Positions 1,725 to 50,482 of a stretch of 64,000 nt of DNA are shown piece by piece. The stretch's first letter is position 1; each line of letters begins with the position of its first letter. A model generated the notes under the pieces. It ran no database searches. It was not told the DNA's origin and saw nothing but the letters and a program-made list of their open reading frames with translations. The DNA is taken from IMG/VR virus record IMGVR_UViG_3300010396_000006, positions 32,001 through 96,000 of that record. The stretch is one strand, 5' to 3'. The position numbers and the translations under genes are program-made. This stretch comes from a virus.

Positions 1725-2276
1725 ATGGACTCAATTAATCGACGTGGAATTCTCGGAGTCATCATCGCGGCTCTGTTTGCTCCGCTTGTGAAGATCGCAT
1801 CGGCCTCAACCGTCGCCAAGCCAAAGCGAAAACTCAAAATTACCTATGAGAAAATTGCGGATGGCGGATGGCTTGGGAAAGTTGTCGGGTCAGAAAAAGA
1901 TCTGATCGCGTTTTATGAGGCATGGAAAACCTCAATGTGGCCTGAGTGGAGAACGGACGCCTCGGATCACGGACGTAATGAATACGAGAAATACAAATCG
2001 CAAATCGCCGAAGGATTGTGTGGACTGTTCTGGCTCGGCTTTAAATCGGAGGACTGGCTTGTCAGATCGTTTGGCGATGCCGTTGAATCCTGTTGGGATA
2101 GATGCGATAGCGTTGAACCGATGCCGGACGAAGTCTGCCGTCGTCATGGTATTTCACGAGCTACCGGAACTAGGACCTGCGGATTAATGTCGTATTGGAC
2201 AGACGAGACGGAACTTCTGAAAGAATGGCGAGTGATTGAAAAGGTTCGCCACGGTAAAAATCAGGCCAATTGTTAA
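1725..2276 (+). CDS. Hypothetical protein with twin-Arg-like hydrophobic leader
   Basis: AGGA RBS; NRRGILGVIIAALFAPLV leader. Confidence 0.7.
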   Translation: MDSINRRGILGVIIAALFAPLVKIASASTVAKPKRKLKITYEKIADGGWLGKVVGSEKDLIAFYEAWKTSMWPEWRTDASDHGRNEYEKYKSQIAEGLCGLFWLGFKSEDWLVRSFGDAVESCWDRCDSVEPMPDEVCRRHGISRATGTRTCGLMSYWTDETELLKEWRVIEKVRHGKNQANC

Positions 2277-14250: not shown

Positions 14251-15073
14251 GGATAAGCTATCGTCTGCGGAGCGAAGGAAGCTCAGAAGGCAGTTAAAGG
14301 AACAAGGCGAATCAATACCCGCTGACCTAACGCCTAAGCCCAATCGTAAAGCCCATCTGGATAAACTCCCCAATACGGAAACAAAGACACCGAAGACGGA
14401 GAGTAAACCAAGGGGCCAAGCGAAGCCAAAGCCCAAAGCGAAAGCCAAGCCCAAGCCAAGAAAGACTGAGACAACACCGGCCGGTAATGAATCAGTCGAT
14501 CAACAGAACGAGACGGAACAACCCAAGCCAGTCACGGTAGAAGCGGTCCCCGCTCCCGAGTCTGAAATCTCACCCGAATCTGTGTCGGGGGGATGGGGGG
14601 ACGGTGGCAAATATGGTCCATCTGGTCTGACGAAAACGCACGAACAGCGGATGGTTGTCAGTTCATTCAATTGGCAAAACCGCAATCGATTCCCGCTGGA
14701 AAAGGCTGTTGACGAAAACCTGAAGATCGTTGATGCGGTTGATGGCAAGTCGGATGTCTATCAGGAAATCCTGACCACGACTGTCGAGATGATGAGATCG
14801 AAGTCGGCGAGGTCAAAGGGCATTGGATTGCGGGCCGGCGTTCAACTCGTGACGGCCGTGCAAAAAGACGACCATGCCAAGTTGAGGGCTGAACTGCGTC
14901 CGATGGTATTCACTCCTCCCTCCCCTGCGCCAGAGATGCCGGCTCCCGCAGTTCCGGCCCATGTCGACCAAAGCATGAACATCGATAACAGCCATCGCGT
15001 CGTGATCTTCAACATTCCGGATAACGGACGAGATCCACAATTGAAGGCGCAATTGACTGGGGCCGCTCAATGA
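14246..15073 (+). CDS. Putative terminase small subunit
   Basis: Overlaps the TerL start; ends with VVIFNIPDNGRD, a tail typical of TerS. Confidence 0.6.
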   Translation: MEDKLSSAERRKLRRQLKEQGESIPADLTPKPNRKAHLDKLPNTETKTPKTESKPRGQAKPKPKAKAKPKPRKTETTPAGNESVDQQNETEQPKPVTVEAVPAPESEISPESVSGGWGDGGKYGPSGLTKTHEQRMVVSSFNWQNRNRFPLEKAVDENLKIVDAVDGKSDVYQEILTTTVEMMRSKSARSKGIGLRAGVQLVTAVQKDDHAKLRAELRPMVFTPPSPAPEMPAPAVPAHVDQSMNIDNSHRVVIFNIPDNGRDPQLKAQLTGAAQ

Positions 15074-16797
15074 GTTCCGTTCTCGAACAGTACGGACCAA
15101 ATGCGACGATCGTAGGACCGCAACCGGGTCCCCAGACTCAGGCCATGCAGAGCGCTGCCGATATCGTGATCATGGGTGGGGCGAACGGAGGGGGCAAATC
15201 GCATTGGATTCTGCTCGAAGCAGCGCGTCATGCCCGAGTGCCAGGATATCGAGCTGTCGTGTTCCGGCGTGAATCGACTGATATCACTGACCCCGGCGGA
15301 CTCCAAGATACGTCGATGACGATCTATCCCCAGCTTGATGGATGGTTCCGATCCAACAAACTGGATTGGATATTCGATCCGGATGCTCGCATTTCATTCC
15401 GAGGACTGCCGCACGCCAAGGATGCTATCTCGTGGGATGGAAAAGAACTGGCGTTCATCGGCTTTGATGAATTGCAATTGTTCACCGAATTTCAATTCTG
15501 GTATCTGTTCAGCCGCATGAGGTCCAGTTGCGGCGTCAACCCCGTTATTCGAGCGACATGCAATCCCGTTCATGAGGAAGATCCGACCGGCGGATGGTTG
15601 AAGATCCTGATTGGCTGGTGGCTCAACTGGGAAACCGGGTTTCCAATTCCAGAGCGATCCGGGAAAGTGCGATGGTTCGTGCGGTTGAACAATGAACTTC
15701 ACTGGGGCGATTCCCGCGAAGAACTGATTGAGCGATTCACCGATCCGGACAGTAAAGAGGAAGGCCCAACCGTCTTTCCGATGTCGATCACGTTCATCCC
15801 GTCGAAGTTACGGGACAACCCGATACTGATGAACTCGTCGCCCCAGTATCGAGCCAGCTTGATGGCGTTGCCGGACTATCTGAAGAAACAGAAATACGAA
15901 GGCAACTGGAACGCGAAACTTCAGGCCGGAACATTCTTCAAGATTGGTGTGATGGGCCGCAAAGGTCAGATCATTCCGATAGAGGAACTGCCGGCGATCG
16001 GCCTACGTTATTGCCGTGCCTGGGATCTGGCATACACGGAAGGGGCTGGAGACTGGACCGTTGGTGACTTATTGGCGACTGATGGGAAAGGAACATTTTA
16101 TCTCATTGATCAAGTTCGTGGACAATGGGAATCAAGCAATCGCAATGATCGAATGTTGGCAGTCGCCGCTGACGATGAAGAGAAATACGGTCGAGTCAAG
16201 ATCTGCGTTCCACAAGATCCATCGGCCGGAACTGAAATTTGTGAGCGACTGCTGAAAATGTTTGCCGGTTATTGGGTTGTCGGTCGAAGGCCAATCAAGA
16301 ACAAGGCAGAGCGAGCGTCGGCTTATTCGTCGTCATTCAATGGCGGAAATGTGAAGTTCGTCAAAGCGCCATGGAATTCCGGATTGCTTCAACGAATGGA
16401 TTCATTCCCGACGAAAGATATCCCAGATGATGAGATTGACGCATCTGCGGACGCCTATGAAGAACTCAGAGGCCCATCGCCTGGGGGAGCAATGGCTGAT
16501 CAAAGTGCCGTTGCCAACCCGACAGAGAAGGAAAACGTCAATCCGTTCCGCGGGTTGCTGGAAAGCTATGTTCGCGAATTCTGGTCGACCATGTCGAAGA
16601 ATGAACCAACCTGTCCCGAGTGGAAGGGATCGTTGGCAAGATTCGTTGATGATGTCGGTGAGCGCCCAAGCGACGATCACAAACTCGCAAGACGCGATCG
16701 CAACGAACTATGGGGTCCAGCAAACTTCTACTGGCAACTGGGCGATGAACCGCCTCCACCGATCAAAAGAGGCTGGGGCAAGGCAATGGCGGATTGA
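15070..16797 (+). CDS. terL: Terminase large subunit
   Basis: PQPGPQ, Walker A GGANGGGKS, Walker B IGFDE, ATCNP, nuclease RAWDLA...DDEIDA. Confidence 0.95.
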   Translation: MSSVLEQYGPNATIVGPQPGPQTQAMQSAADIVIMGGANGGGKSHWILLEAARHARVPGYRAVVFRRESTDITDPGGLQDTSMTIYPQLDGWFRSNKLDWIFDPDARISFRGLPHAKDAISWDGKELAFIGFDELQLFTEFQFWYLFSRMRSSCGVNPVIRATCNPVHEEDPTGGWLKILIGWWLNWETGFPIPERSGKVRWFVRLNNELHWGDSREELIERFTDPDSKEEGPTVFPMSITFIPSKLRDNPILMNSSPQYRASLMALPDYLKKQKYEGNWNAKLQAGTFFKIGVMGRKGQIIPIEELPAIGLRYCRAWDLAYTEGAGDWTVGDLLATDGKGTFYLIDQVRGQWESSNRNDRMLAVAADDEEKYGRVKICVPQDPSAGTEICERLLKMFAGYWVVGRRPIKNKAERASAYSSSFNGGNVKFVKAPWNSGLLQRMDSFPTKDIPDDEIDASADAYEELRGPSPGGAMADQSAVANPTEKENVNPFRGLLESYVREFWSTMSKNEPTCPEWKGSLARFVDDVGERPSDDHKLARRDRNELWGPANFYWQLGDEPPPPIKRGWGKAMAD

Positions 16798-18386: not shown

Positions 18387-18812
18387 ATGACAATCTTCGC
18401 CGCGCTCATAATCGGTCAGATGATCCAATTCCAATCAGACCGAGGCTACGCCGAATGCGTTGGAACAAAGGAACAAGTCGCCTCGTTCTACGTGACTTGG
18501 AAATTCTGCTGCGATCCAAATTGCCAAACGACCAACAAAGCTACCTGGGATAGATGGGATAAGCTGTGGGCCGATAATCTGTCAGAGACAATGCTGTTTC
18601 AGAATGACCGAGCGACACGGCTTGGAATCGCCAAGGCGGTCTTCTATCGCGGCTTGTGGGTGAGGTTCAGAGTTCGTATTGACCCGTTCGGATCGTTTTG
18701 GGTCTACTATTCACCGTGGGTCCATGTCGCGGCCACAATTGGTTTCCTGTTGGGTGTGATCTGGTGGCTGAAGCGAAGGATGAATCGTCAATGCAAAAGT
18801 TCGCCTGCCTGA
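18387..18812 (+). CDS. Membrane protein sharing a GxxxxxxxFYxxW domain
   Basis: C-terminal TM helix; similarity to ORFs 1725 and 30798. Confidence 0.55.
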   Translation: MTIFAALIIGQMIQFQSDRGYAECVGTKEQVASFYVTWKFCCDPNCQTTNKATWDRWDKLWADNLSETMLFQNDRATRLGIAKAVFYRGLWVRFRVRIDPFGSFWVYYSPWVHVAATIGFLLGVIWWLKRRMNRQCKSSPA

Positions 18813-21839: not shown

Positions 21840-21854
21840 ATGAGGAGTGAATTA

Positions 21855-22574
21855 ATGGGAACGCAAGTTTGGAATGTGGCATCGCTGCTCGTCATGACGT
21901 CTATGTTCATTGGCTTGGCGACAATGCTCTATCGAGCATTCCGTCATCAACCGGACGTGAAGACTCCAGAAGATCCATACGGATTCGGTTGCAAGCCAAC
22001 GCCGATTCAATTGAGAGTCCTGAAATCAACGGCTGACATCGTGATCTATTGCGGGCCTGCTGGATCTGGAAAGAGCATGCTGATGCGAATGGCCGCAATG
22101 ATGCGAGCCAGGTTGTATCCGTCACAGCCTATCCTCACGTTCTGGTTTCAGCAGCGAGAAACGTGGGAAATGTTGGACAAGCACATTCCGTCAATTCGCG
22201 TGATCGGCCTCAAAGGCATCAATGAGGCTTGTGATCAATTTGCGGGAGTTGCGGCCCACACGATTTGCATCGACGGGATTGACTGGATCAGGGAAGAGTC
22301 GTTCTGGTTTCTGCTGTCGCGGTTGCGATCGAACGATTCGAACGTCAATCCGCAAATGTTCTGCTCAATGGATCGTCTTACAGATCCAAAGCCGCTATGG
22401 CTCGCAAAGCTGGTGAAGCATTGGGAGGAACCAGCAGACGGAATCGGCATTCGTGGAAAGCGGAATGGAATCCGTCACTTCCAAAGGATTGACGGCAATT
22501 TGCATCTTGTGGATATCACAAAGCATGATGCGTTGCTCAGCAAGCCGATCTCGATCGAATACATCCAAGGATGA
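21855..22574 (+). CDS. Membrane-anchored degenerate terminase ATPase-domain paralog
   Basis: Colinear similarity to the TerL N-terminal half; Walker A GPAGSGKS; N-terminal TM helix; GAGGAG RBS. Confidence 0.75.
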   Translation: MGTQVWNVASLLVMTSMFIGLATMLYRAFRHQPDVKTPEDPYGFGCKPTPIQLRVLKSTADIVIYCGPAGSGKSMLMRMAAMMRARLYPSQPILTFWFQQRETWEMLDKHIPSIRVIGLKGINEACDQFAGVAAHTICIDGIDWIREESFWFLLSRLRSNDSNVNPQMFCSMDRLTDPKPLWLAKLVKHWEEPADGIGIRGKRNGIRHFQRIDGNLHLVDITKHDALLSKPISIEYIQG

Positions 22575-22981: not shown

Positions 22982-23059
22982 TCGTTACCGGTCCGTGAAT
23001 GGGTAATTGTGCCGCCAAGTTTTAAATACTCCTACGAATGTTCAAGAAAGGCTGATTTG

Positions 23060-23536
23060 ATGCCGGAGAATTTGACGATCGAGCAGAAGGCCACTAACAA
23101 CGACACATTCCGCCACATTGAACGGGTGAGAAATCTGATCAATACTTGCGTGACGGATCTACTTCGACGGGGAGAAAGACACGATCAAACGAAACTGGAA
23201 TCACCAGAGGTTGAACTGTTCACAGAATTCACGCCAAAGTTGGCTGAGTGTACTTACGGAAGCGCCGAGTACGAGGGATTCCGGAAAGCAATGGGGCCGG
23301 CGCTCGCTCACCACTATGCGAACAATTCGCACCATCCAGAGCATTGGAAGAATGGCATTGACGACATGAGCCTGCTGGACATTGTCGAAATGTTGTGTGA
23401 CTGGAAAGCAGCGAGTGAACGCCATAACGATGGAAACATCCGGAAGTCGATCACGATCAATGCCGACCGATTCAAGATGTCGCCGCAGTTGGTGAAGATT
23501 CTGGAAAACACAGCCGACTTGCTGTTCTCAGATTGA
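23060..23536 (+). CDS. DUF5662-like HD-fold protein
   Basis: HIERV..HDQTK..HHYANNSHHPEHW..EMLCDW.AA. Confidence 0.75.
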   Translation: MPENLTIEQKATNNDTFRHIERVRNLINTCVTDLLRRGERHDQTKLESPEVELFTEFTPKLAECTYGSAEYEGFRKAMGPALAHHYANNSHHPEHWKNGIDDMSLLDIVEMLCDWKAASERHNDGNIRKSITINADRFKMSPQLVKILENTADLLFSD

Positions 23537-23594
23537 GACCGCTGGCAATGTGCTGACGGCAAACAGACCGTAACTCAAGTTTCAGGAGAAATCA

Positions 23595-23888
23595 GTGAAT
23601 TCAAGACCATTGGCCGATCAGGTGATCATCAAGCGAGATGACGCCGAAAAAGTGACTCAGGGAGGAATCCACCTGCCGGATCGAGCGCAGAACGTCCCGC
23701 GAAAAGGAACTGTCCTCGCCGCAGGACCTGGGCGACTTCTGGACAACGGAACCCGCGGAGAAATGGAACTGAAAGCCGGGGATCGAGTCTATTTCTCAGC
23801 TTACGGCGTTCAGGAAGTGGAGATTGACGACGAAAAAGTCATCATCTGCCGGGAGGCGGATGTGTTAGCGGTGATCGAATCTGAGTGA
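23595..23888 (+). CDS. groES: Co-chaperonin GroES (Cpn10)
   Basis: RPLADQVIIK...TQGGIHLPD.A...GTVLAAGPG...GDRV.F..Y...READVLAVI. Confidence 0.9.
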   Translation: MNSRPLADQVIIKRDDAEKVTQGGIHLPDRAQNVPRKGTVLAAGPGRLLDNGTRGEMELKAGDRVYFSAYGVQEVEIDDEKVIICREADVLAVIESE

Positions 23889-23976: not shown

Positions 23977-26900
23977 ATGTCACAAATCATGAGCCGACGC
24001 CGCAACCGCAACCGTCGCGTTGAGAACTATCGCAAGAATTCGGATCGGGTTGTTGAGCATCCAAATGTTCCGGCCCCCGAACTGAACGACTCCCAAATCA
24101 AGTCGATGGCGTCTCAGATGCGGGCGGCTCTGGCCGGAAGCTTCGGCGGCGCTCAAGTCACGAATCACCGCGAAGAAGCTCTCCACTATGAGGGCAATAG
24201 CTACGTCAATATCGCGGCCATCTGCGCCCAAATGATGATGGTGACGATAACAGCCTATGTCGACGGATCGAACCAGCTTCGACAGCAGTCGGTCCGGAAG
24301 TCGCTGCGAGGTCTCGTCGGAAGCCGATGGAAGTCTCAATATGGGGTTGATGAGGCATCGTCGAAGCAACTCGAATCAGACCATTACCTGATGCGATTGC
24401 TGTCGAAGCCAAATCCGCACGAACCGGGCAGCATGTTCCGGTATCGGCAAACTCTTCAACTCAGGCTCACTGGAGGTGCGTTCCTGTGGAACGTCCCAAA
24501 TATCAACGGCCGGACGTGCGAACGGTACGTCATCCCCACCACATGCCTGACGCCGGTCTATCCAGACAACACGTTGCCGTACGGTGGTTATCGCGTTCAA
24601 CCAAACTGTATGCGATGGATTCCACTGGTTGACGATGGATTCGTGATCGGGACCCCGGCCCTGATGCGAGTGTTGGGCATGATCATTGATGCCCGAGAAA
24701 TCCAAAAGGTTGGCTATCCACATCCGATCTGGCTGGATGACTTCCAAAGCCCGATGTCTGCTGGCGCTCAGTGGGTCGATGCCGAACGATCGATCAACAT
24801 CGCACGGGCAATGGGCATCAGCCGCGGCATGAATCCGAGCGGTTTCCTTGAACTATCCAAAGAATACATGGGCATCGAACAAGATGCGCTGAACATCACT
24901 CAGCGGAAACTCGATCGACAATATGGCGGCGTCAACAACACGGGCAAGGTCATTGCCGTGGCTCCCGATACCAAGTTCACCGGATACGATCGAAGCCCGA
25001 AAGACATGGAATACCATGAAGGGTACTTGGATCACCGGGAAGCGAATCAGTCTCTACACGGCGTTCATCCGATCATCACTGGCGGACAGCCCCCCGGCGC
25101 ATACGCGGCCTACTACGCCGCCATGCGAGCATTCGACAACAACACGTTGACTCCCATTTGTGACATGCTGGCGGAATCAGACACGTTCCACATTGCACCG
25201 CAATTCGGCGAAGGGATCACGATCGAGATCGAGCCAAAGCCGATCAACGATGAGGACGAACTGAATTCACGTCTCCAGGTCGATGGTCAATTGGGGATCA
25301 TCAAGGTCAATGAAGCGCGAGCATTGCGAGGAATGCCGCCATTGGACGGAGCGCAAGGAGAAAAGCTGTGCGGACCGACTTCAAAGGATAAGGTTGGTCA
25401 GGATCAAGACAGCGACAATCCATCCAAGCCGAAGAAACCAAAGCAGTCTGGCGATGCGCCGTCAACTCCCGAGGTCCAAGAAGCCGAACAAGCGGACGTC
25501 CCCAAGGCTCCCGAAAATCCCATCGTCGGCAAGAGTGAATCAAAATCACTTCAAGCCGCAATGGAAGGGATGAAGGAGGCGGACGAAGACTACATTCAAG
25601 AAATAGTTGCCAAGGCGTTGGATTCGCGACTGAAGGCGATGCAACCTGCCGAGAAGCCAAAGCGGAAGTATTCCTCGACGCAGTTTGATCTGCCTGCCGG
25701 TCTCGCCGAAAAAGTGCAGGAGATGGCAGCCCTGATCAATCCGGCCGATCTCGCATCGGATGGAATCGAAGAAAATCCGCACGTGACTTGCTTGTACGGG
25801 CTGACCGAAGAATCACCCAATGATGTCAAGAAAGCCGTCAAGGGAATCTCGGCCGGTCCGATCGTTCTTGAATCGCTGTCGTTGTTCCCGGCTGGTGACA
25901 AGCTTGCTCAGCATGGCGGCGAACAGTTCGACGTTTTGAAGATCAGCATCGGCGGAAAGTTCATTCACGAGATTCACAATGCGATCGCAGAATCGTGCGA
26001 GTATGAAACCGATTATGCCGACTATTCTCCTCACTGTACGATCGCCTACTTGAAGCCGGGAAAAGGCCGCAAGTATGTGACGATGAACAATCCAGTGGAT
26101 GGGATGACGTTCATTCCTGACAAGCTGATCTTCAGTAGCAAAAACCGAACGGTCTCGGCAATTCGATTGAGCGTTCTGAAATCAGTCGAAGAACAACCAT
26201 CAGAAGCTCAGATTACTGCCGGCAATTACAAAAAAGATCACATCACAATTCAGGGGCTAAGGATCTCAATCGAAAATCCGAAAGGATCTGTTCGAAGTGG
26301 TCGTGACGATGATGGCAATGAGTGGTCAACGAAAATGCGGAATGATTACGGCTACATCAAAGGAACGAAATCAGATTCCGATGGTGATCACATTGATGTC
26401 TTCGTTGGGCCAAATCCAAGTTCAGAATTGGTGTTCGTAATTGATCAGGTCAATCCGCAAAGCGGGCAACATGACGAACACAAATGCATGTTGGGATTCG
26501 ATTCGAAAGATCAAGCGAAGTCTGCCTATCTCGAAAACTATTCCAAGGGTTGGAAAGGCTTCGGCGGCATTACTCCAATGCACATGGATCAATTCAAGGA
26601 ATGGCTAGACAGCGGAGATTCATCAAAAGGAATCGCGAGAAAATCTCTCACGGCAGCATTCTCCGAATCAGAAATGAAGGGCCACAATCCAATCAGCGAC
26701 ATCCAAGCCATTGGAAAGAGACTCGCTGAATCCGATTGTGGAATGCCCGGATACGGTCAGATCTTTATCAAGGAAAACGGATCTGGCCAAGCATGGTATG
26801 TCGGTGGCGACGGAGATGAACGAGGATTCGATAAGACTGTCATTCAAGAACTGAAGAAAGTCACGGGGATTGACGAAGTTCGTTATGAGTCTGAATCGTT

Positions 26901-29900
26901 CCCGCCCGATGGGGAAGGATGGATTCAGGTCTATCCGAAAGTGTCGAAGCGTAAATCTCTCGGCATGTCCGAAGGGATCGGGTCAGATGGAGGATTCGCC
27001 GTCGCTTCCGAAGACGAACGATGCCCAAAATGTCCCAAATGCGGATCACGGGAAACGCATCATGCTAGAACTGATGGCACAGGGAACGCGATCTGTAGCA
27101 ATTGCAAATCAATTTTCACTGATCCTGATTATGGAAAACAGAAATCAGTTTCGTTTCCATCGTCAGAAGTCGTACCGGGCAACAACGGCCATCAATTCCC
27201 CAAGAACACATTGATTCTTGGTGGGGATCAAGTTCTGATGCCACCAGAGTCAGAACTCAAATCCAAATGGATCACGATTCATCCTGGGGGAGACAAAGAC
27301 GCAACTGGCATTCACATCCTGATTGACGAAGACGGCGAAATCAAAGGCGGTCCGGCCGAACTGCGAGACAAAGGCATCCGCAAGATGTCTGACTTCGGGA
27401 AAGAAGACCTGAAGCCAGTCAAACCAAAAGACAATCACGAGAAGGCCGCATTCAACGCCAGCAAGCGAGCCGATCAAGCATCCGCCGATGCTAAAGAGTC
27501 GGGCGACCTGTTCGACCATATTGCGGCTAAAGAAGCCCACATGCACGCCGCAGCCCATCACAGCAAAGGCGGCAATGAAGATCAGGCGTCATATCACAGA
27601 AAGGCGGCTCAACAGCACGGTTCAGCCGCGACACCAACGGCTCCAGCGTCAAACGGACAACTGAGCGACGAAAAGATCATCCAGGCAATGAAGCCATCCG
27701 TTGATCGCAGCGGCATGGTTGAGGCCGAAGAACTGCGATCGATGCCAGAATTCGCTGGGATGTCGAAAGAGAAATTCGACCAACGAATGATGGACATGGC
27801 CAAAGTTGATCAGCCGGGCGGACCGAAGGTCTCGTTGCACCGATACGACCGAGCCGAATCGCTGTCAGCGGACGATAAAAAAAAGATGATCTTCGATCCG
27901 GATGCGCCGGCACGATTCGAAGATGGACAAAAGGGAGCGTATTACAATGCGGTCTCCATCCGCAAATCGTTGTCAGAAATGAAATCGCATTGGATTACGA
28001 TCCATCCTCATGGCGATGAGCATGATGGAACGCACGTTTTGATCGATGGAGAAGGGAATATCGAAGGCGGTCCCGAAGGACTGGCGAAACGTGGGATTCA
28101 CAAGCTGTCCGACTTTGGGAAAGGCGGCGAATCAGCAGACAAACCACACGAAACCCGTGAAGAGTGGGCGAAGAGACATTCCGATGCCGCCGATCATTGG
28201 TTACATGGAGTGAACAATGATCTGGCAGCCGTGCATCAAGAACACGGCGACTTGATCACAAAAAAGCACATGACGGACAGCTTTCGAAATCACGTCAATA
28301 CCGGAAGAATGACCCCAGATCAATATGAGGATCATGTTTCTAAGGGAACCATTCTCGGTGGACACGATTACGAACGCGCTCAGCATGTCGAGCAGAAAAT
28401 CCATGAGATCAAAAATCGTCCGCTAACTGTCCCGGAGCCAGATGGAAAGCATCCATACGTTGAACCGCCCGCCAAGCCGCCGGAAGAAAAGCCAGAAATC
28501 CGACCAGACATCGACGCTCCGATCAGCAAGAAAGACACGCCTCGCGAAACGGCGGCAAAGCAAAAGAAGATTGACGATGATTATGCGTTTGCTCGCAATT
28601 CATCCATCCCGAATGTCGGCGAAGATGTTGCCGATTCGGCTCGTCACAAGCGAAATGCTTGGCGTGGATTGGAAGATGCGGAATCCAATGGAACCGCCGA
28701 ATCAATGGTGACTCGTGATAATCTGCTCAAGGCCGAACCGCACAACTTGATGTCTCATGCCGGAAAACATCCACTGACATCACTGGCCATGCATTACGCG
28801 ATGAGATCGTTCCCAGCGAAACCATCCAGCAATCGCGAAGTGGCCAATGCCAGCGATCGGAAGGACTATCACGAAGCGTATCAGAGCATCAAAGCAAAAG
28901 CCGAGCATCTGGCGGAAACAGAATCCGATCCACGGGCAGCCGCAGAGAAGCTACGAGAACACGTCGGCAATCATCTGAAGGGATTGAGGGAGCGGAAGAT
29001 TCCCGGACCCACAATTCCCGTGGCCGATCGATACAACAAGACCGCGAACAATTTGGTTGGAATGCACAAGGCGTTACGATTCGCCAGCTACGGCCGACCA
29101 TCGGCAAATAGCGTTCATGGCAAGATGGAAGAGTTCTCAAAGGCGATGGCCGGGAAATATGGACTTCCAGAAAAGTATGAACCTGAAGCGGCCAAGCAAT
29201 TCGCCTCCCATATTGAGACTCACGCCAAGGACATTATTGACGGGAAATCGCTTCCACAGTCATTTGGCATTAAGGGAGAAAAGAAAAACGAATTTAATCC
29301 TGCCGATCGATACGTCAAGCATGCTGAACGAGCCGGGGGCAAGGATGTCAGTCACCAAACCGCAACGGGAGTCTCGGCGGCAAACTCCGTCGTAAACGAC
29401 TTCGGGATGCGTGGCGTCCAATGGGGTAACAGCGTCACTGACGACGAACGCCATCATCACGCTGCCAAGGTTGTCGAAGCGTTGACCGATCTGGCCGATA
29501 CTCTCGGCATCAAGCCGGCTGATCTCAGTCTCGGCGGAAAGCTGGCCTTGGCCATTGGCGCTCGCGGTAAGGGAACTGCCTCGGCTCATTACGAACCGCA
29601 TACCCAGGCCATCAACCTGACGCGGGCCAGCGGAGTCGGTACTCTCGCCCATGAGTGGGGACACGCCTTTGATCATTCACTGGAGAATTTCGCGAATCGT
29701 GCGACGAGTGCGGTCTATCACAGCGAAAACTATCGATCCAGTCCGGCAATGCAAAAGCTGACATCCGATTTCCGATCATCGGGATTCACGAATCGAATTC
29801 ATAGTGAGGTTCGTGATATGGTGCGTCAGGGCCTGATGTCGAAAAAGAAAGCGGAATACTGGCTATCAACCAGAGAACAATTCGCCCGTTGCTTCGAGAG

Positions 29901-30684
29901 TTATGTTCAACACAAGCTGGCTGACACGAATCAGAAGAATACGTATCTTGCTGGTCTGATTTCGGACGGCGGCTTGTGGCCGACCAAGGAAGAAACGGCC
30001 AAGATGGCCCCCGCTTTTGACAGTCTGTTCGCTGAATTCCGCAAACAAAAGTATGGAAGCGAAAATCGGATTGATCAGTCTCGATCGGAAATCAAATCGG
30101 CAGTCTTGGATTTGGTTGGTCAATCCGTCTTTAAATCGTCGCGATGGATCACAATCCATCCGCACGGTGAAGACGCGAAAGGCGTCCATATCCAGATCAA
30201 TGACGACGGCGAGATCCTGTCAGGTCCCGCACATCTTCGCGACAAGGGAATTACCCACATGGGGGATTTCGCGAAGCGGGGAAGCAATCAAGCGGCCGTG
30301 GACGAACTGAAGCCTCACGCTCTCGAATTCCTGACCGAGCAACACAAGCTGAGAGAACATCACAAAGCCGAAGCTCGCAAACTGACTGGCAAGAATGCCG
30401 GCAATCTGGCGATGTCGGAAAACAGCTATCACGATCATTCGGATGCTCATCGATTCGAGACCGCCGCTCGCACATTCGCCCGAGAGAATCCCGATGCTGG
30501 ATTGAATCCAGATGCTCACGACACGCCGGCCAAAGTCTGGGAGCTAATCCGGGAGGGCAAGAAGAAAGCCCCGCTGATCAATTCGAAGGAAGTCCACGAG
30601 ACAGCCAGAGCCTGGGTGAAGAATCACCGAACGAAGCGTGCGCCGGTAGGCACATACGAACACGATTCCGATTGGAACTTCTGA
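23977..30684 (+). CDS. Portal protein fused to polyvalent effector domains (2H phosphoesterase, InPase, Zn ribbon, 3x WITIHP repeat, LPD1 metallopeptidase)
   Basis: HK97-type portal motifs (LLSKPNP, L.LTGGAF, NEAR...MPPL); HVT/HCT; AGNYKK..ENPKGS.R.G..DGDHIDVF..DEHKCMLGF; GVQWGN..GARG..AHYEP..LAHEWGHAFD..FAR.FE.YV. Confidence 0.9.
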   Translation: MSQIMSRRRNRNRRVENYRKNSDRVVEHPNVPAPELNDSQIKSMASQMRAALAGSFGGAQVTNHREEALHYEGNSYVNIAAICAQMMMVTITAYVDGSNQLRQQSVRKSLRGLVGSRWKSQYGVDEASSKQLESDHYLMRLLSKPNPHEPGSMFRYRQTLQLRLTGGAFLWNVPNINGRTCERYVIPTTCLTPVYPDNTLPYGGYRVQPNCMRWIPLVDDGFVIGTPALMRVLGMIIDAREIQKVGYPHPIWLDDFQSPMSAGAQWVDAERSINIARAMGISRGMNPSGFLELSKEYMGIEQDALNITQRKLDRQYGGVNNTGKVIAVAPDTKFTGYDRSPKDMEYHEGYLDHREANQSLHGVHPIITGGQPPGAYAAYYAAMRAFDNNTLTPICDMLAESDTFHIAPQFGEGITIEIEPKPINDEDELNSRLQVDGQLGIIKVNEARALRGMPPLDGAQGEKLCGPTSKDKVGQDQDSDNPSKPKKPKQSGDAPSTPEVQEAEQADVPKAPENPIVGKSESKSLQAAMEGMKEADEDYIQEIVAKALDSRLKAMQPAEKPKRKYSSTQFDLPAGLAEKVQEMAALINPADLASDGIEENPHVTCLYGLTEESPNDVKKAVKGISAGPIVLESLSLFPAGDKLAQHGGEQFDVLKISIGGKFIHEIHNAIAESCEYETDYADYSPHCTIAYLKPGKGRKYVTMNNPVDGMTFIPDKLIFSSKNRTVSAIRLSVLKSVEEQPSEAQITAGNYKKDHITIQGLRISIENPKGSVRSGRDDDGNEWSTKMRNDYGYIKGTKSDSDGDHIDVFVGPNPSSELVFVIDQVNPQSGQHDEHKCMLGFDSKDQAKSAYLENYSKGWKGFGGITPMHMDQFKEWLDSGDSSKGIARKSLTAAFSESEMKGHNPISDIQAIGKRLAESDCGMPGYGQIFIKENGSGQAWYVGGDGDERGFDKTVIQELKKVTGIDEVRYESESFPPDGEGWIQVYPKVSKRKSLGMSEGIGSDGGFAVASEDERCPKCPKCGSRETHHARTDGTGNAICSNCKSIFTDPDYGKQKSVSFPSSEVVPGNNGHQFPKNTLILGGDQVLMPPESELKSKWITIHPGGDKDATGIHILIDEDGEIKGGPAELRDKGIRKMSDFGKEDLKPVKPKDNHEKAAFNASKRADQASADAKESGDLFDHIAAKEAHMHAAAHHSKGGNEDQASYHRKAAQQHGSAATPTAPASNGQLSDEKIIQAMKPSVDRSGMVEAEELRSMPEFAGMSKEKFDQRMMDMAKVDQPGGPKVSLHRYDRAESLSADDKKKMIFDPDAPARFEDGQKGAYYNAVSIRKSLSEMKSHWITIHPHGDEHDGTHVLIDGEGNIEGGPEGLAKRGIHKLSDFGKGGESADKPHETREEWAKRHSDAADHWLHGVNNDLAAVHQEHGDLITKKHMTDSFRNHVNTGRMTPDQYEDHVSKGTILGGHDYERAQHVEQKIHEIKNRPLTVPEPDGKHPYVEPPAKPPEEKPEIRPDIDAPISKKDTPRETAAKQKKIDDDYAFARNSSIPNVGEDVADSARHKRNAWRGLEDAESNGTAESMVTRDNLLKAEPHNLMSHAGKHPLTSLAMHYAMRSFPAKPSSNREVANASDRKDYHEAYQSIKAKAEHLAETESDPRAAAEKLREHVGNHLKGLRERKIPGPTIPVADRYNKTANNLVGMHKALRFASYGRPSANSVHGKMEEFSKAMAGKYGLPEKYEPEAAKQFASHIETHAKDIIDGKSLPQSFGIKGEKKNEFNPADRYVKHAERAGGKDVSHQTATGVSAANSVVNDFGMRGVQWGNSVTDDERHHHAAKVVEALTDLADTLGIKPADLSLGGKLALAIGARGKGTASAHYEPHTQAINLTRASGVGTLAHEWGHAFDHSLENFANRATSAVYHSENYRSSPAMQKLTSDFRSSGFTNRIHSEVRDMVRQGLMSKKKAEYWLSTREQFARCFESYVQHKLADTNQKNTYLAGLISDGGLWPTKEETAKMAPAFDSLFAEFRKQKYGSENRIDQSRSEIKSAVLDLVGQSVFKSSRWITIHPHGEDAKGVHIQINDDGEILSGPAHLRDKGITHMGDFAKRGSNQAAVDELKPHALEFLTEQHKLREHHKAEARKLTGKNAGNLAMSENSYHDHSDAHRFETAARTFARENPDAGLNPDAHDTPAKVWELIREGKKKAPLINSKEVHETARAWVKNHRTKRAPVGTYEHDSDWNF

Positions 30685-30797
30685 TTCATCAATAGCCAGA
30701 CAGTTGCGGAATCTCTAAGATTTCTGCGATTGATCTGGTCCCGTTGATGGAGCATGAAGATGATTCAACGCATGCAAGAAAGGTTTTCAAAATGGAG

Positions 30798-31478
30798 ATG
30801 AATCGACGCTCACTACTCGGAATGATCCTTGGTTCGGCTTGCTCGTTATTATTGCCAACTAAGTCGATATCCGCTGGTTTGAAGTCACTGGAAATTCCGG
30901 TCGATGCGAACGGCATCCCAATTCACTGTTATGTCTGGAACGTGCCAAACATCAACGGCCGGACGTGCCAGAGACATATTATTCCTGTCGACGATCTTGC
31001 ATTGATTAAAGCGAATACGGAGTTGCCTTATAGTGGGTATCGTATCAGCCAATCCCCCAATCGATGGGCATCCATGCCGCTTTATGGGGAAAGCCCGGTT
31101 GAAAATCCATCATTGCGAGTCGCTGGATATATCATTGATGACAGGCAAGTAGAACGAATCTCTCCATCGAATCCATTTCGGCTGAAGTTGCTTTACCATC
31201 ATGACGTCGAGGTATGCTTTATTGACGGGTCTGCCGATGACTCGATCGCCTTCTATCTCGCATGGCAAAGATGCCGCCAAACTCCATCGCAAGAATCGGA
31301 GTTGCGAAAACATTTAGCGAATGGCGACGGCATTGCGATTGGCTTTCGCAAATCAAATTTGATGTCTTTTGTGGCAATCAACCAAGCGGTTATGGACTGC
31401 GGTGTCCCATGCTTTGAGACAGACAAAATGACAGAAAGCGAAAATCGATGCACGCGGACGTATGCTCACGTCAGCTAG
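30798..31478 (+). CDS. Twin-Arg-like leader + portal-derived fragment + FYxxW domain
   Basis: MNRRSLLG; WNVPNINGRTC identical to the portal. Confidence 0.75.
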   Translation: MNRRSLLGMILGSACSLLLPTKSISAGLKSLEIPVDANGIPIHCYVWNVPNINGRTCQRHIIPVDDLALIKANTELPYSGYRISQSPNRWASMPLYGESPVENPSLRVAGYIIDDRQVERISPSNPFRLKLLYHHDVEVCFIDGSADDSIAFYLAWQRCRQTPSQESELRKHLANGDGIAIGFRKSNLMSFVAINQAVMDCGVPCFETDKMTESENRCTRTYAHVS

Positions 31479-31487
31479 GGAATCGCA

Positions 31488-31573
31488 AAATCTTACTGAT
31501 TTCAGTTGACATCCTTGCCGATATCTGGATAGCATTCTGAACATGTGAGCGGGTTGAACCAGTAACTCCCCGC
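31488..31573 (+). promoter_or_regulatory. Promoter module: AAATC-N5-GATTT, TTGACA-18-TAGCAT, CAGTAAC-loop hairpin
   Basis: Seen directly. Confidence 0.75.
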
Positions 31574-31610
31574 GAAATTCTCTTGTTCCTGCTATCAGAA
31601 GGTGCGACGT

Positions 31611-32050: not shown

Positions 32051-33416
32051 ATGTCGGATGATCTATTCCGCATCAATCCAAATGCATTCGACGATCCAGC
32101 GTTGGCGGCATGGCGTGACGAACTGATCAAAGTCGGGCCGATGCGAGTCGGGCTGCCAATCAAAACAGAAAGTGAAACCATGCCGAAATATGCATACAGA
32201 GCATCCAGCGGTGACTGTGAAATCGGGCATCATGTGACATGCGATCAGGACAAGGTGATCAGCCATGTCGTAAGCATGGTTCGACATTCGCGTTATCCAG
32301 ATCGATCAGACGCCATTGAGATTCACAACGATTCTACCGGGGAACACATCTGCATCTTGGCGTTCCACAAATCGCGGGTGATTGCGATCTATCCGAATTG
32401 CGTAACGACTTGGGCCAACGGATCAGAGTTATCTCTTAAATTGTTGGACGAACCAGTATCAGTCGATGCCAAATTCCACGACAACCGCATTGGGCAAAAG
32501 TGCTGGTATTATGTCTATGATTTCAAAGCCAGAGCCGCCGGCCCGTGGCTTCAAGGGTTCCTTCGCATGTGGGGAACCGACTTCATAGAGTTCGAAAGTG
32601 GTACTGGATTGTTTCCGATTGCCGTGATCGAGGATGATGAAACCGGAAAGTGTTGTTCTGTTCCGGTGGATCAAGTTCATTTCTCAGCAACAAAGCCAGA
32701 AAACGAGACGCCATGAACAAGGAACAGCGGGACGCATTGAAAGAAAAGATCGAAGAATTCGATGATCGAGAGAGGCGAATCGCGATCATCAAAGAAATCT
32801 TTCGACAATGCGAAGGTTCATCGCATTGCATGCACCTCAAGGATATGACGGATTTCTTGCGTGAGTGTGCGCCGGAGGAATCGGTCATGTTGGCCGTAGT
32901 CGCCTTGCGTCCGATTCTCCAGGCGATCTTGGAACGCGACATCAAGGCGATTCAGGAACTCCGTCCGGAACTCTGAAAGGCGGATTGCAGGATGCTCAAT
33001 CGTTTACTCGCATGGTTCAGGCTGAATGGATCGAAAATCGGAACCTATTCTGAGTTTGAAGATTGCTGGCTCGGCTATTATGGAAAGCCGATTTATGAGC
33101 CACCGGCCATGATCGAAGCCGCAAAACAGCAGATCATCGACCGAGACGGCACAATCAACGAGATTCGCAATCTGTATGGATTGCCGTCATTGATCCAATT
33201 TGAAAGGCCTTATTCGTCATGTGGGACCGAGATCGCATCAGACAAGCCGCAATGAAGCTCTGTCGCATCCGTGGCCTCAATCCGAACGAAGTGATCCAGG
33301 CCGCATGCCCAGAGATTGAGAACGACAAGAACGTCTATATGTGGGAATCGGTCGTTGGTGAGATCCGCCGAGCCGTGGAAGTTCAGGAAGCAATCGAGTT
33401 CGCGAAAGGCCTGTAA
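32051..33416 (+). other. Four hypothetical genes (32051-32716, 32713-32976, 32992-33255, 33252-33416)
   Basis: Tightly packed ORFs with ATGA overlaps. Confidence 0.6.
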
Positions 33417-33450
33417 CTCAATTGCGTCATCTAAAACAGGAAAGATTCCA

Positions 33451-34125
33451 ATGTACGAACGATTCACGGATCGGGCCGCGAAAATAATGCAATTGGCCAA
33501 TCAAGAAGCCCAGCGATTCAATCATGAATACATCGGGACCGAACATATTCTGTTGGGACTCGTGAAAGAGGGTTCAGGTGTTGCGTCAAACGTCTTGAGA
33601 AATCTGGACATCGACTTACGCAAGATCCGCTTGGAAGTTGAAAAGATGGTCGGAAGCGGTCCCGATATGATCACAATGGGAAAGCTGCCTCGGACGCCAG
33701 GGGCGAAGCGGGTTGTTGAACTGGCGATCGAGTCCGCGAATGCACTCGGGACAAATTACGTCGGGACCGAACATCTGTTGCTTGGTCTGATCGGCGAGAG
33801 TGAAGGCATTGCGTTCCAAGTGTTGCAGAAACTTGGTGCTACAAATGACAAGGTGATTGCCGAGTGGGAATCGCTGATGGGCCAGACAGCGCCCGGCAGA
33901 TCAACAAAGCCAGTTCGGGAACCACTGGCGTTTGTTTTCGCGAATTATCCCCAAGCGTACGTTCCGATATTCGATACGCCGCGGAGCATGCCTCCGGTCA
34001 TGGAGGAAGTGATCACGATTCTCGGCGTGTCCATGTGGAACGGTCGGGAATGGGTCTCGCGCTTCGGTGCCAAATGCGACCAGAAGTTGATCAAATGGTG
34101 GATACCGTTGTTCAATGTGGTTTGA
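33451..34125 (+). CDS. Stand-alone ClpC N-terminal (Clp repeat) domain fused to an unrelated short C-terminus
   Basis: MYERFTDRA.KIMQLANQEAQRFNHEYIGTEHILLGL...YVGTEHLLLGL; no AAA+ domain. Confidence 0.9.
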   Translation: MYERFTDRAAKIMQLANQEAQRFNHEYIGTEHILLGLVKEGSGVASNVLRNLDIDLRKIRLEVEKMVGSGPDMITMGKLPRTPGAKRVVELAIESANALGTNYVGTEHLLLGLIGESEGIAFQVLQKLGATNDKVIAEWESLMGQTAPGRSTKPVREPLAFVFANYPQAYVPIFDTPRSMPPVMEEVITILGVSMWNGREWVSRFGAKCDQKLIKWWIPLFNVV

Positions 34126-49108: not shown

Positions 49109-50482
49109 ATGCCCGCTCCCACATCTGCCGAACTTCTCGAAATGAGCAAAACCGCAATTCAGCGAGCTGAAAAGGCTGAATCGGCGTTGAAGTCGTTGCA
49201 AGACAAAGTCGAAGCGACTCCGTCCATTCATGCCCACGGTTCGCGCGACAATGGCGCTGAAGGCTGGTGGGAAGAAGCCGGTGCGGATTCACCGGAACTG
49301 ACGATGCTTTCCGGCTATCAAGGCCGTGTTCCGCAGGCGAGTCCGTCTCGTGGTTCCATGAAAAAGTCGATGTCGATTCTGAAATCGATCGGCTATCGCC
49401 CGGCCGGCCGTCAGGTCAGCACATTCAAATCGATCTCCGACTGGATTCGCCAGGGGATGCAAAAGGACGGCGAAGGGACCGCCAAGTTCCGCGACAACAT
49501 GTATGCCCACATGAAGGAATACGATTCCCAAATGAAGGCATTGGGAATGTCGGAAGGCATCGCGTCTGACGGCGGATTCGGTGTGATTCCCGAATTCAAC
49601 CTGAAGATTCACGAGCATCTTTACAGCAACAACATCCTTTCCCGCACGGACGGCTATACCGTCACCGGGAACAACATGGCGTTTCTGGCGAATGCCGAAA
49701 CCAGCCGCGTCACCGGCAGTCGAGCCGGGGGTATCCAAGGCAATTGGGTGGGTGAAGGTGGAACTTATTTGCCATCCAAGCCAACCGTCCGTCAGATCAA
49801 TCTGCGTTTGCAGAAACTGCAAGTGCTGGTCTATCTGACCGACGAATTGATCAATGACAATTCCATCGCGCTCGAACAATACGTGATGCGGAAGGCGTCC
49901 GAGGAATTCGCTTGGCTGATTGCTGATGCCATCTTCAACGGCAATAACGTCGGCAAACCGCTGGGAATCCAGAATGCCCTGTCGCTGCTGGCAATCGCCA
50001 AGGAAAGCGGTCAGGCCGATACGACCATCGTCGCTCAGAACATCATCAAGATGCAGAATCGGCTGTTCGCACCATACATGCAGAATGCATCGTGGTTCGT
50101 GAACCAAGACACGATTCAGCAGTTGATGCAACTCACCTTGGCAACCGGAACCTATTCCGGCCAACTGGTCTACCAACCGCCAACCGGGCTGGCTGGTCTG
50201 CCATACGGTACGCTCGGCGGTCGACCCGTCGAACCGATCGAATTCGCCAAAACGCTGGGGACTCAAGGCGATATCACGCTGGCCGATCTCAGCCAAGTGT
50301 TGTCGATCAGCAAAGGCGGAATCGAACAGGCCACGTCAATGCACGTCGCGTTCTTGACCGACGAAATGGCGTTGCGGTTCACGATGCGTATGAACGCGAT
50401 GCCGTGGGAAAACAGCCCGATCACCCCAGCCAACGGAACGAACACCCAATCGTCATTCGTCACCTTGGCTAGCCGTCCATAG
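49109..50482 (+). CDS. Major capsid protein (HK97 fold) with ~143-aa delta domain
   Basis: DGGFGVIPE, WVGEG, TDELI.D, I.NG..VGKPLGI, TL.GRPV, DEMALRF..R. Confidence 0.95.
   Translation: MPAPTSAELLEMSKTAIQRAEKAESALKSLQDKVEATPSIHAHGSRDNGAEGWWEEAGADSPELTMLSGYQGRVPQASPSRGSMKKSMSILKSIGYRPAGRQVSTFKSISDWIRQGMQKDGEGTAKFRDNMYAHMKEYDSQMKALGMSEGIASDGGFGVIPEFNLKIHEHLYSNNILSRTDGYTVTGNNMAFLANAETSRVTGSRAGGIQGNWVGEGGTYLPSKPTVRQINLRLQKLQVLVYLTDELINDNSIALEQYVMRKASEEFAWLIADAIFNGNNVGKPLGIQNALSLLAIAKESGQADTTIVAQNIIKMQNRLFAPYMQNASWFVNQDTIQQLMQLTLATGTYSGQLVYQPPTGLAGLPYGTLGGRPVEPIEFAKTLGTQGDITLADLSQVLSISKGGIEQATSMHVAFLTDEMALRFTMRMNAMPWENSPITPANGTNTQSSFVTLASRP

What the first reader, a model, noticed from the sequence alone, without database searches (positions are those of the whole stretch)
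30798..31478. Portal fragment grafted into an unrelated protein right after the portal gene
Seen: ~80 aa match the portal (WNVPNINGRTC identical; LPY.GYR; RV.G.IID.R...P). DNA at 30936-30968 vs 24487-24519 is 31/33 identical and both changes are synonymous. The fragment sits between an RR-type leader and a FYxxW domain shared with ORF 1725. Known: Avs4 recognises portal. Inference: a portal mimic or decoy that pairs with the terminase mimic.
Basis: partly seen in the sequence, partly recalled or inferred. Interest (0 to 1): 0.75.

Follow-up and report, generated by a model that had tools for sequence, protein, structure and literature searches.

The report
Secreted orphan protein carrying portal piece
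A soil phage, probably of Planctomycetes, has copied an ~86-residue piece of its own portal protein into a small orphan gene with an export signal; the copy is real and apparently unique, but it looks like an exported accessory protein, not a cytoplasmic immune decoy.

Summary
ORF 30744..31478 (likely start ATG 30792 or 30798) has three parts:
- a twin-arginine-type signal peptide;
- an ~86-aa copy of residues 168-253 of the phage's own 2235-aa portal fusion protein (37/88 identical, E 8e-19), including a 33-nt patch that is 31/33 identical with only synonymous changes;
- a Cys-rich C-domain weakly but non-randomly similar to ORF 1725, which carries the same kind of leader.

The copied piece is the beta-rich part of the first wing segment. 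It ends just before the stem helix and contains no stem, clip or crown. A tree places it as sister to the phage's own portal (96/89), on a branch about 14 times longer. It therefore looks like an old internal duplication followed by fast divergence.

Nothing comparable turned up elsewhere. A search of 1.84 billion representative proteins returned only full portals, and 32 related phage or prophage loci each have one copy, inside the portal gene.

The decoy reading is not supported. The protein is predicted to be exported. It lacks the stem and clip that EcAvs4 binds. No binding could be shown.

A second partial paralog (TM helix plus a TerL ATPase domain with a dead Walker B) sits 1.4 kb upstream of the portal, which keeps a small chance for a paired self-mimic role. 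Earlier notes of this scan describe partial head-gene copies in other large phages.

The parts
30744..31478 (+). ORF244: whole open frame (244 codons from TTG 30744; stop 31476-31478). Orphan chimeric gene, the last gene of the portal transcription unit.
   Evidence: The in-frame codon-usage score is 0.11, against -0.35 and -0.38 out of frame. Genome genes score 0.25 +/- 0.07, minimum 0.106. The only full-length match in 5.8 billion clusters and 1.84 billion representatives is itself.
30776..30800 (+). Probable translation start: SD-like AAGAAAGG (30776-30783), then ATG 30792 and ATG 30798.
   Evidence: Read from the sequence. ATG 30792 lies 8 nt after the GG of the SD-like site.
30792..30875 (+). 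Twin-arginine-type signal peptide: n-region MEMNRR, h-region SLLGMILGSACSLLLP, c-region TKSISA, predicted cleavage before G29 (numbered from ATG 30792).
   Evidence: Sequence reading. Hydrophobicity peak 2.02 with an RR motif. The leader resembles that of ORF1725 beyond all 2000 shuffles. No TAT-signal HMM hit, so the assignment rests on pattern only.
30927..31184 (+). Portal-derived module (ORF244 aa 62-147): copy of the beta-rich part of the portal's first wing segment.
   Evidence: E 8e-19. AF2 pLDDT is 78-96 over model residues 31-125. The secondary-structure elements match those of portal 167-246 one for one. Seven of the top 9 hits in VIA-align wide are portals, aligned at their residues ~86-190 (Z 3.8-4.9).
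30936..30968 (+). 33-nt patch (WNVPNINGRTC), 31/33 identical to 24487-24519.
31185..31475 (+). Cys-rich C-terminal domain with the IAFY.AW motif; a distant paralog of the mature part of ORF1725.
   Evidence: score 47 against shuffles 25.9 +/- 4.6; 3 of 2000 reach it. The AF2 model here is low confidence (pLDDT 50-66). No family in Pfam, PHROGs, NCBIfam or PADLOC.
24478..24735 (+). Parental segment: aa 168-253 of the portal domain of the 2235-aa portal-polyvalent fusion protein (gene 23977..30684).
   Evidence: Phage_portal 129-452; HK97 portal 8CEZ, E 3e-14. The segment lies between helix 151-165 and stem helix 264-282.
1725..2276 (+). ORF1725: 183-aa orphan with the same NRRxxLG leader (cleavage ASA|S), followed directly by the IAFY.AW domain. 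It shows the presumed recipient architecture without the portal insert.
31506..31535 (+). Promoter-like site (TTGACA-18-TAGCAT) just downstream of ORF244. It marks the start of the next unit. None was found between the portal gene and ORF244.

Best explanation
ORF244 is a real, lineage-specific chimeric gene. An ~86-residue structural unit of the phage's own portal, the beta-rich (SH3/Tudor-like) part of the first wing segment, was duplicated. It was inserted between the signal peptide and the mature domain of a small secreted Cys-rich protein of the ORF1725 type. The copy then diverged about 14 times faster than the portal itself. The gene is probably transcribed late, with the portal gene. 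The twin-arginine-type leader would send the pre-protein across the inner membrane (Tat or Sec), where it would be cleaved after SISA. That would release a ~200-aa protein in the periplasm or envelope of a Planctomycete-type host. There the former portal piece would serve as a binding or scaffold module for an accessory function such as superinfection exclusion, receptor masking or envelope remodelling. Shown here: the gene anatomy, the homology, the origin from the phage's own portal lineage, the identity of the copied subdomain, and its uniqueness. Inferred: expression, export and the envelope role.
For: - Homology and boundaries.
- Sister to the phage's own portal, support 96/89. Ten derived states are shared (PNINGRTC, LPY.GYR, RW and others). 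Terminal branch 5.18 against 0.36.
- The copied unit is a discrete subdomain. Its strands and helix match the portal model one for one, and portal structures top the structural search at the homologous residues. Its position before the stem helix matches the wing-stem-clip-stem-wing-crown order described for T4 gp20 (PMC4493910).
- Coding: the frame is open for 244 codons although third positions are saturated. Both indels against the portal are multiples of three. Codon usage is coding-like in frame 0 in all three segments.
- Export: the RR motif, h-region and small -3/-1 residues are canonical. This leader type occurs only in ORF244 and ORF1725 in the genome. The mature parts are 3.5% and 3.9% Cys against a genome mean of 1.5%.
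- Recipient architecture: ORF1725 has the same leader joined directly to the homologous domain.
- Host clade: the nearest portals in cellular genomes are in Schlesneria (Planctomycetota) assemblies, two of them in one complete chromosome.
- Precedent: truncated, diverged paralogs of head genes exist in large phages, e.g. SPN3US gp117 (PMC5694885).
Against: - No signal-peptide predictor was available and no TAT-signal HMM matched, so export is a pattern-based inference.
- There is only one genome, so neither conservation nor selection can be measured.
- Residues nearly invariant in portals are not retained significantly better than variable ones (12/24 against 21/64, p 0.11). Purifying selection on the fold is therefore not demonstrated.
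- The AF2 confidence for the fragment leans on an alignment made of portals.
- The codon-usage score is at the low end of the genome's genes.
- No envelope function is indicated by any homology.
- A second partial paralog, of TerL, lies near the portal. That is not explained by an envelope role.
Confidence: 0.55

Rival explanations
1. Immune decoy. ORF244, alone or together with the membrane-anchored dead TerL-ATPase copy at 21840..22574, mimics a surface of the portal that host sensors recognise (Avs4, Avs11, RAZR-like, SpbK-like). It would soak up or mislocalise the sensor, so the real portal goes undetected.
For: - The only two substantial intragenomic paralog pairs among 151 ORFs involve TerL and the portal, the two classic Avs targets (the third hit is a 23-aa motif).
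- Both copies are partial, very diverged, orphan, carry an added N-terminal hydrophobic segment and flank the portal gene.
- ORF244 appears to be co-transcribed with the portal.
- At least one defence system, RAZR, assembles around the outer circumference of portal rings. T7 gp8 escape mutations lie at 192/223/227 (PMC13017515), so a sensed portal surface other than the clip is known.
- Fast divergence fits an arms race.
Against: - The predicted signal peptide puts the portal-like module outside the cytoplasm, while the TerL-like copy is predicted to face the cytoplasm. The two would sit on opposite sides of the membrane.
- The fragment lacks the stem and clip that EcAvs4 and SpbK bind (PMC12847820).
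- It is unique to one genome.
- No known anti-defence or defence family matches.
- A fragment that binds an Avs sensor could just as well trigger it.
Confidence: 0.1
2. Evolutionary debris. ORF244 would be a chance chimeric frame left by illegitimate recombination next to the portal gene. It would be drifting and have no function, whether expressed or not.
For: - It is an orphan confined to a single genome.
- Its branch is very long.
- Half of the portal-invariant residues are lost, with no significant enrichment of retention at conserved sites.
- Its codon-usage score is at the bottom of the genome's range.
- Earlier notes of this scan read some similar head-gene leftovers in another phage as ordinary duplication and loss (unchecked).
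Against: - At 54% nucleotide identity and saturated third positions, a drifting sequence would be expected to have collected stops and frameshifts. Here 244 codons stay open, and the indels against the portal are in frame.
- The architecture is orderly: a complete signal peptide, a complete structural subdomain with exact boundaries, and a complete paralogous domain.
- Frame 0 is clearly coding-like against the other two frames in each of the three segments.
Confidence: 0.2
3. Assembly modulator or interference factor. The wing-like module would bind portal subunits, capsid or scaffold. It could tune this phage's own procapsid initiation at the membrane (as T4 gp40 assists portal assembly there), or poison the portal rings of competing related phages.
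For: - The wing is the part of portals that contacts the capsid, and T4 portal assembly starts at the inner membrane with the phage protein gp40 (PMC4493910).
- The gene lies directly after the portal gene in the same unit.
- It has a membrane-targeting N-terminus.
Against: - The predicted topology (N-in, bulk outside, and probably cleaved) separates the module from cytoplasmic assembly.
- No relative of this portal clade has such a gene.
- Half of the invariant portal residues are lost.
Confidence: 0.1

Closest known systems
Cryptic truncated paralogs of head-morphogenesis genes in large phages (SPN3US gp117, 201phi2-1 gp206 and PhiPA3 gp143, paralogs of the prohead protease; PMC5694885)
   Same: A strongly diverged, truncated second copy of an essential head gene kept as an intact frame in the same large phage genome; function unknown.
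   Different: Those paralogs are conserved across a group of related phages and stand alone. ORF244 is unique to one genome. It copies only one subdomain of the portal and is grafted between a signal peptide and an unrelated domain.
HK97-family phage portal proteins (Pfam PF04860; HK97 gp3 8CEZ, RcGTA portal 6TBA)
   Same: The 86-aa module is homologous to the beta-rich part of the first wing segment, and the same secondary-structure elements are predicted.
   Different: ORF244 has no stem, clip, tunnel loop, long wing helix or crown, and no Pfam match. It cannot form a portal ring or channel.
Tat/Sec-exported small phage accessory proteins acting in the envelope (e.g. the T5 Llp lipoprotein that masks the receptor FhuA; from general knowledge)
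   Same: Small phage-encoded protein with an N-terminal export signal and no role in the virion. This is a plausible working analogy.
   Different: There is no sequence or structural relation. No receptor or partner is known. The late, portal-linked position is unlike the early expression of many exclusion genes.
Portal-sensing defence systems and their ligand surfaces (EcAvs4, Avs11, SpbK, RAZR; PMC12847820, PMC13017515, bioRxiv 10.64898/2026.01.04.697583)
   Same: They show that portal surfaces are immune targets, which is the premise of the decoy idea. RAZR binds the ring's outer circumference.
   Different: I found no phage-encoded portal decoy described in the papers searched. ORF244 lacks the stem and clip used by Avs4 and SpbK, and it is predicted to be exported.

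Membership tests
Phage portal protein, HK97 family (PF04860) | Full wing-stem-clip-stem-wing-crown fold that can form a dodecameric channel | tested here: not met
   Only portal residues 168-253 are represented. The portal model shows that the stem helix starts at 264 and the clip, long wing helix and crown lie beyond it. ORF244 continues instead into an unrelated domain.
Phage portal protein, HK97 family (PF04860) | Significant match to the family profile | tested here: not met
   ORF244 has no Pfam or PHROG hit, while the parent scores 1e-23 to PF04860. Homology of the fragment to portals is nevertheless significant.
Twin-arginine (Tat) signal peptide | Z-R-R-x-phi-phi motif, moderately hydrophobic h-region of 12-20 aa, and a c-region with small residues at -3/-1 (often also a basic residue) | tested here: met
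   N-R-R-S-L-L; a 16-aa h-region ending in Pro; c-region T-K-S-I-S-A before Gly. ORF1725 has N-R-R-G-I-L ... K-I-A-S-A|S.
Twin-arginine (Tat) signal peptide | Recognition by a trained model (TIGR01409 / PF10518 or TatP/SignalP), or shown export | tested here: inconclusive
   No HMM hit at E up to 1-10, but short signal models rarely pass HMMER's filters. No signal-peptide predictor was on hand, and export cannot be tested here.
Decoy of Avs4-type portal sensors | [quoted passage not shown] | tested here: not met
   Stem and clip are absent; only the beta part of wing segment 1 is present. Whether that part overlaps the 'part of the wing' contacted by EcAvs4 could not be checked. No coordinates could be handled, and the original Avs4 paper is not in the held library.
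Decoy of Avs4-type portal sensors | Located in the same compartment as the sensor (cytoplasm) and binds it | not testable with these tools
   Sequence features predict export. Binding to a host sensor cannot be tested because the host and its sensors are unknown.
Cryptic partial paralogs of head genes (SPN3US gp117 type) | Diverged, truncated paralog of an essential head gene in the same genome, with an intact frame | tested here: met
Cryptic partial paralogs of head genes (SPN3US gp117 type) | Conserved among related phages | tested here: not met
   None of the 32 related loci, and none of the 1.84 billion representatives, has a second or stand-alone copy. The relatives available are distant, with portals 31-47% identical.

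The most novel reading that the evidence does not exclude
ORF244 and the 244-aa protein at 21840..22574 (TM helix plus a TerL ATPase domain in which the Walker B Glu is Gly) would form a pair of membrane-targeted 'self-mimics' of the two phage proteins most widely sensed by STAND/Avs immunity. They would have evolved to bind, sequester or mislocalise portal and terminase sensors of a Planctomycete host. That would be the first phage-encoded structural-protein decoys against pattern-recognition immunity.
Probability: 0.08. Interest if true: 0.85.

Novelty: new variant of a known kind. Interest (0 to 1): 0.4.

Why it matters
The case shows how a phage can build a new accessory gene from its own structural parts. 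A single, cleanly bounded subdomain of an essential virion protein was inserted into a secreted protein and then evolved very fast. If the module works in the envelope, it is a clear example of exaptation of a portal subdomain. If it instead acts on portal sensors, together with the dead TerL copy, it would be a new class of anti-defence protein. It could then be tested directly with known portal-sensing systems. As things stand it is one orphan gene in one uncultured soil phage, so its general importance is limited.

Tried and rejected
- **The look-up of encoding contigs:** Related loci came from the search for related loci instead.
- **Complex prediction** (portal 60-470 with mature ORF244): no verdict, score 0.00. 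This is not evidence either way.
- **Sequencing runs:** no RNA holder is listed. The single DNA holder is probably the source sample.
- **Foldseek of the ORF244 model against PDB:** nothing at E <= 0.001. Portals appear only among weak hits.
- **ESM Atlas search for the C-domain:** no usable hit. The Atlas's own model has pLDDT 0.30.
- **Family libraries:** Pfam, PHROGs, NCBIfam and PADLOC give nothing for ORF244 or ORF1725.
- **Direct homolog searches:** tblastn against 50,697 phage records found nothing. A pattern scan of IMG/VR with ORF244 found nothing. ORF1725 and the TerL-like ORF are also orphans in their length range.
- **Avs4 structure paper:** not in the held library by DOI or by the PMC id I tried. 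The interface is quoted second-hand from PMC12847820.
- **Retention at portal-invariant columns:** not significant, p 0.11.
- **Read-through or frameshift extension of the portal protein:** rejected. ORF244 is in a different frame, 60 nt after the portal stop, and has its own SD-like site and ATG.
- **Assembly artefact:** rejected. The copies are only 54% identical in DNA, and a second assembler reproduces the locus.
- **Foreign origin of the fragment:** rejected by the tree and the shared derived states.
- **Lipoprotein signal (LGSAC):** considered and thought unlikely, because Gly sits at -3 and the h-region before the Cys is short.
- **w18387 as a third family member:** similarity is weak, p about 0.013. 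Left open.

Full report
**Setting.** The window is bases 32001-96000 of a 105,647-bp IMG/VR virus contig with direct terminal repeats, rated complete. Almost all genes lie on the + strand. The gene at 23977..30684 encodes a 2235-aa protein. Its first ~460 residues are an HK97-type portal: Pfam Phage_portal E 1e-23, and the AF2 model matches the HK97 portal 8CEZ at E 3e-14. The rest is a polyvalent-protein tail with 2H-phosphoesterase-like, InPase and LPD1 domains. The nearest portals in cellular genomes are in Schlesneria (Planctomycetota) assemblies, at 41-46% identity. The only public run holding this DNA is a soil metagenome. The host is therefore probably a Planctomycete; that is an inference.

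**The observation.** ORF 30744..31478 follows the portal stop by 60 nt, in another frame. BLASTP aligns its residues 62-147 with portal residues 168-253: 37/88 identical, E 8e-19. Bases 30936-30968 and 24487-24519 are 31/33 identical and both changes are synonymous. Elsewhere the two copies are 54% identical in DNA and 39% at third positions, which is saturated. The patch keeps 9 of 11 codons, while the rest keeps about what codon usage predicts. That is marginal once the post-hoc choice is allowed for. It could be chance or a short conversion tract.

A second assembler reproduces the locus exactly from the same run. Together with the low DNA identity between the copies, this rules out an assembly artefact.

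**Is it a gene?**
- The frame is open for 244 codons despite the saturation.
- Both indels relative to the portal are in frame.
- Codon usage is coding-like in frame 0 and not in the other frames for each of the three segments, although the score is at the low end of the genome's genes.
- An SD-like AAGAAAGG precedes ATG 30792 by 8 nt.
- No promoter-like site lies between the portal gene and the ORF. One (TTGACA-18-TAGCAT) follows it at 31506-31535. The ORF is therefore probably the last gene of the portal unit.

**Anatomy.**
1. *Leader.* The sequence MEMNRRSLLG..., a 16-aa h-region ending in Pro, and TKSISA before Gly form a canonical twin-arginine-type signal peptide. In the whole genome only this ORF and ORF1725 combine an RR motif with an N-terminal hydrophobic stretch. 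The two leaders resemble each other beyond all 2000 shuffles.
2. *Portal-derived module.* In the AF2 model of the portal, the parental segment consists of four strands, a short helix and two strands (167-246). It lies between helix 151-165 and the first stem helix 264-282. The ORF244 model has the same elements at the corresponding positions, with pLDDT 78-96. In a search that does not rely on Foldseek, seven of the nine best chains are portals, aligned at their residues ~86-190 (Z 3.8-4.9). SH3/Tudor/integrase-CTD-like barrels come next. These Z values are low, and the model's confidence leans on an alignment made of portals. I take this as agreement with the sequence homology, not as independent proof. 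Given the domain order of portals (T4 gp20: wing 70-254, stem 255-278 ...; PMC4493910), the module is the beta-rich part of the first wing segment. Stem, clip, tunnel loop, long wing helix and crown are absent.
3. *C-domain* (aa 148-244). It is modelled poorly and matches no family. It aligns with the mature part of ORF1725 through the IAFY.AW motif and two Cys positions. The score is 47 against 25.9 +/- 4.6 in shuffles, with 3 of 2000 reaching it. In ORF1725 the same leader is joined directly to this domain. ORF244 therefore looks like an ORF1725-type protein with a portal piece inserted exactly between signal peptide and mature domain. Both mature proteins are Cys-rich (3.5% and 3.9% against 1.5% genome-wide), which fits extracytoplasmic proteins.

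**Origin.** I aligned the ~90-aa region from 27 related portals with ORF244 and the phage's own portal. ORF244 and the own portal form a clade (UFboot 96, SH-aLRT 89). The ORF244 branch is 5.18 substitutions per site against 0.36 for the portal. Ten states are shared by the two and differ from the family consensus: N-I-N and R in PNINGRTC, both Tyr in LPY.GYR, the Trp in RW, and others. Seven positions show ORF244 keeping the consensus where the portal has since changed. The fragment therefore comes from this phage's own portal lineage. The duplication is not recent, and the copy has evolved much faster. Long-branch effects cannot be excluded, but the shared derived motifs agree with the tree.

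**Distribution.**
- HMMER against 1.84 billion representatives gave 14 hits: ORF244 itself, 12 long portals matched at the homologous place, and one repeat artefact.
- The word-indexed search of 5.8 billion clusters in the 134-427-aa range found only the query.
- Thirty-two loci with related portals (IMG/VR, Schlesneria genomes, JGI metagenomes; ~400 kb) each match ORF244 once, inside the portal gene. None contains an ORF1725-like domain.

These relatives are distant (31-47% portal identity). The statement is 'unique among what is available', not 'recent'.

**The decoy idea.** Published work shows portals are sensed by several systems.
- SpbK binds the clip (same paper).
- RAZR forms a ring around the outer circumference of portal rings (PMC13017515).
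- Avs11 also senses portal (bioRxiv 10.64898/2026.01.04.697583).

ORF244 lacks stem and clip, is predicted to leave the cytoplasm, and occurs in a single genome. I found no described portal decoy in the papers searched. I therefore put the decoy reading at about 10%.

Two facts keep it alive. First, the all-against-all comparison of 151 ORFs finds only two substantial paralog pairs, and they involve TerL and the portal. Second, the other copy (21840..22574) is built in the same style. It is 244 aa long, has an added TM helix, and contains a TerL ATPase domain only, 27-28% identical to this phage's TerL and to relatives' TerLs. Its Walker B reads IDG where TerLs have FDE, and it is an orphan. 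By the positive-inside rule its ATPase-like domain would face the cytoplasm, while ORF244's module would be outside. The two would not act in the same compartment.

**Precedent.** Truncated, diverged paralogs of head genes in large phages are documented, for example SPN3US gp117 and its homologs, paralogs of the prohead protease (PMC5694885). Earlier notes of this scan report similar partial head-gene copies in two other large phages (AI notes, unchecked). ORF244 differs in two ways: it copies only one subdomain, and that subdomain is grafted into a secreted protein.

**Verdict.** The most likely reading (about 55%) is an exported, fast-evolving accessory protein made by domain shuffling from the phage's own portal, with an unknown role in the envelope. 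The rivals are non-functional debris (20%), an immune decoy (10%) and an assembly or interference factor (10%). The finding is a new variant of a known kind, and its interest is moderate.

Noticed in passing
window 21840-22574 (+): A 244-aa orphan consisting of an N-terminal TM helix (aa ~10-31, positive residues after it) and a diverged copy of the TerL ATPase domain only. It is 27% identical over 205 aa to this phage's TerL at 15070..16797, and 28% to a relative's TerL. PHROG 979 scores E 1e-15. Walker A is kept, Walker B reads IDG instead of FDE, and there is no nuclease domain. In relatives TerL sits directly upstream of the portal; here ~7 kb of other genes, including this ORF, lie between them.
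   Followed up: partly
window 23977-30684 (+): A giant 2235-aa portal fused to a polyvalent-protein tail: 2H phosphoesterase-like ~600-695, InPase 743-877, a zinc ribbon ~1018-1049 and LPD1 1955-2024. The related portals found by HMMER are also long fusions of 469-2231 aa.
   Followed up: partly
window 1725-2276 (+) and 18387-18812 (+): ORF1725 is a 183-aa orphan with a canonical RR signal peptide and a Cys-rich domain that shares the IAFY.AW motif with ORF244. The 141-aa ORF at 18387 has a similar VASFYVTWK motif, but the similarity is weak (p about 0.013).
   Followed up: partly
window 31506-31575 (+): A promoter-like site TTGACA-18-TAGCAT, followed by a GCGGG...CAGTAAC...CCCGC hairpin, just upstream of the gene at 31602.
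   Followed up: no
window portal aa 990-1012 (about 26944-27012) vs ORF 49109-50482 aa 140-162: A 23-aa stretch of the portal fusion is 70% identical to a stretch of the 457-aa protein at 49109..50482 (BLASTP E 0.001). It is the third and only other intragenomic match.
   Followed up: no
window 23009-23888 and 33316-34125 (+): The phage encodes a DUF5662 protein, a GroES co-chaperonin (Cpn10, E 5e-28) just upstream of the portal, and a protein with two Clp_N domains.
   Followed up: no
L018 and L019 (Schlesneria sp. T3-172 chromosome NZ_CP172346.1): One complete Schlesneria chromosome carries two separate loci encoding portals of this clade (41% identity each), which suggests two related prophages.
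   Followed up: no
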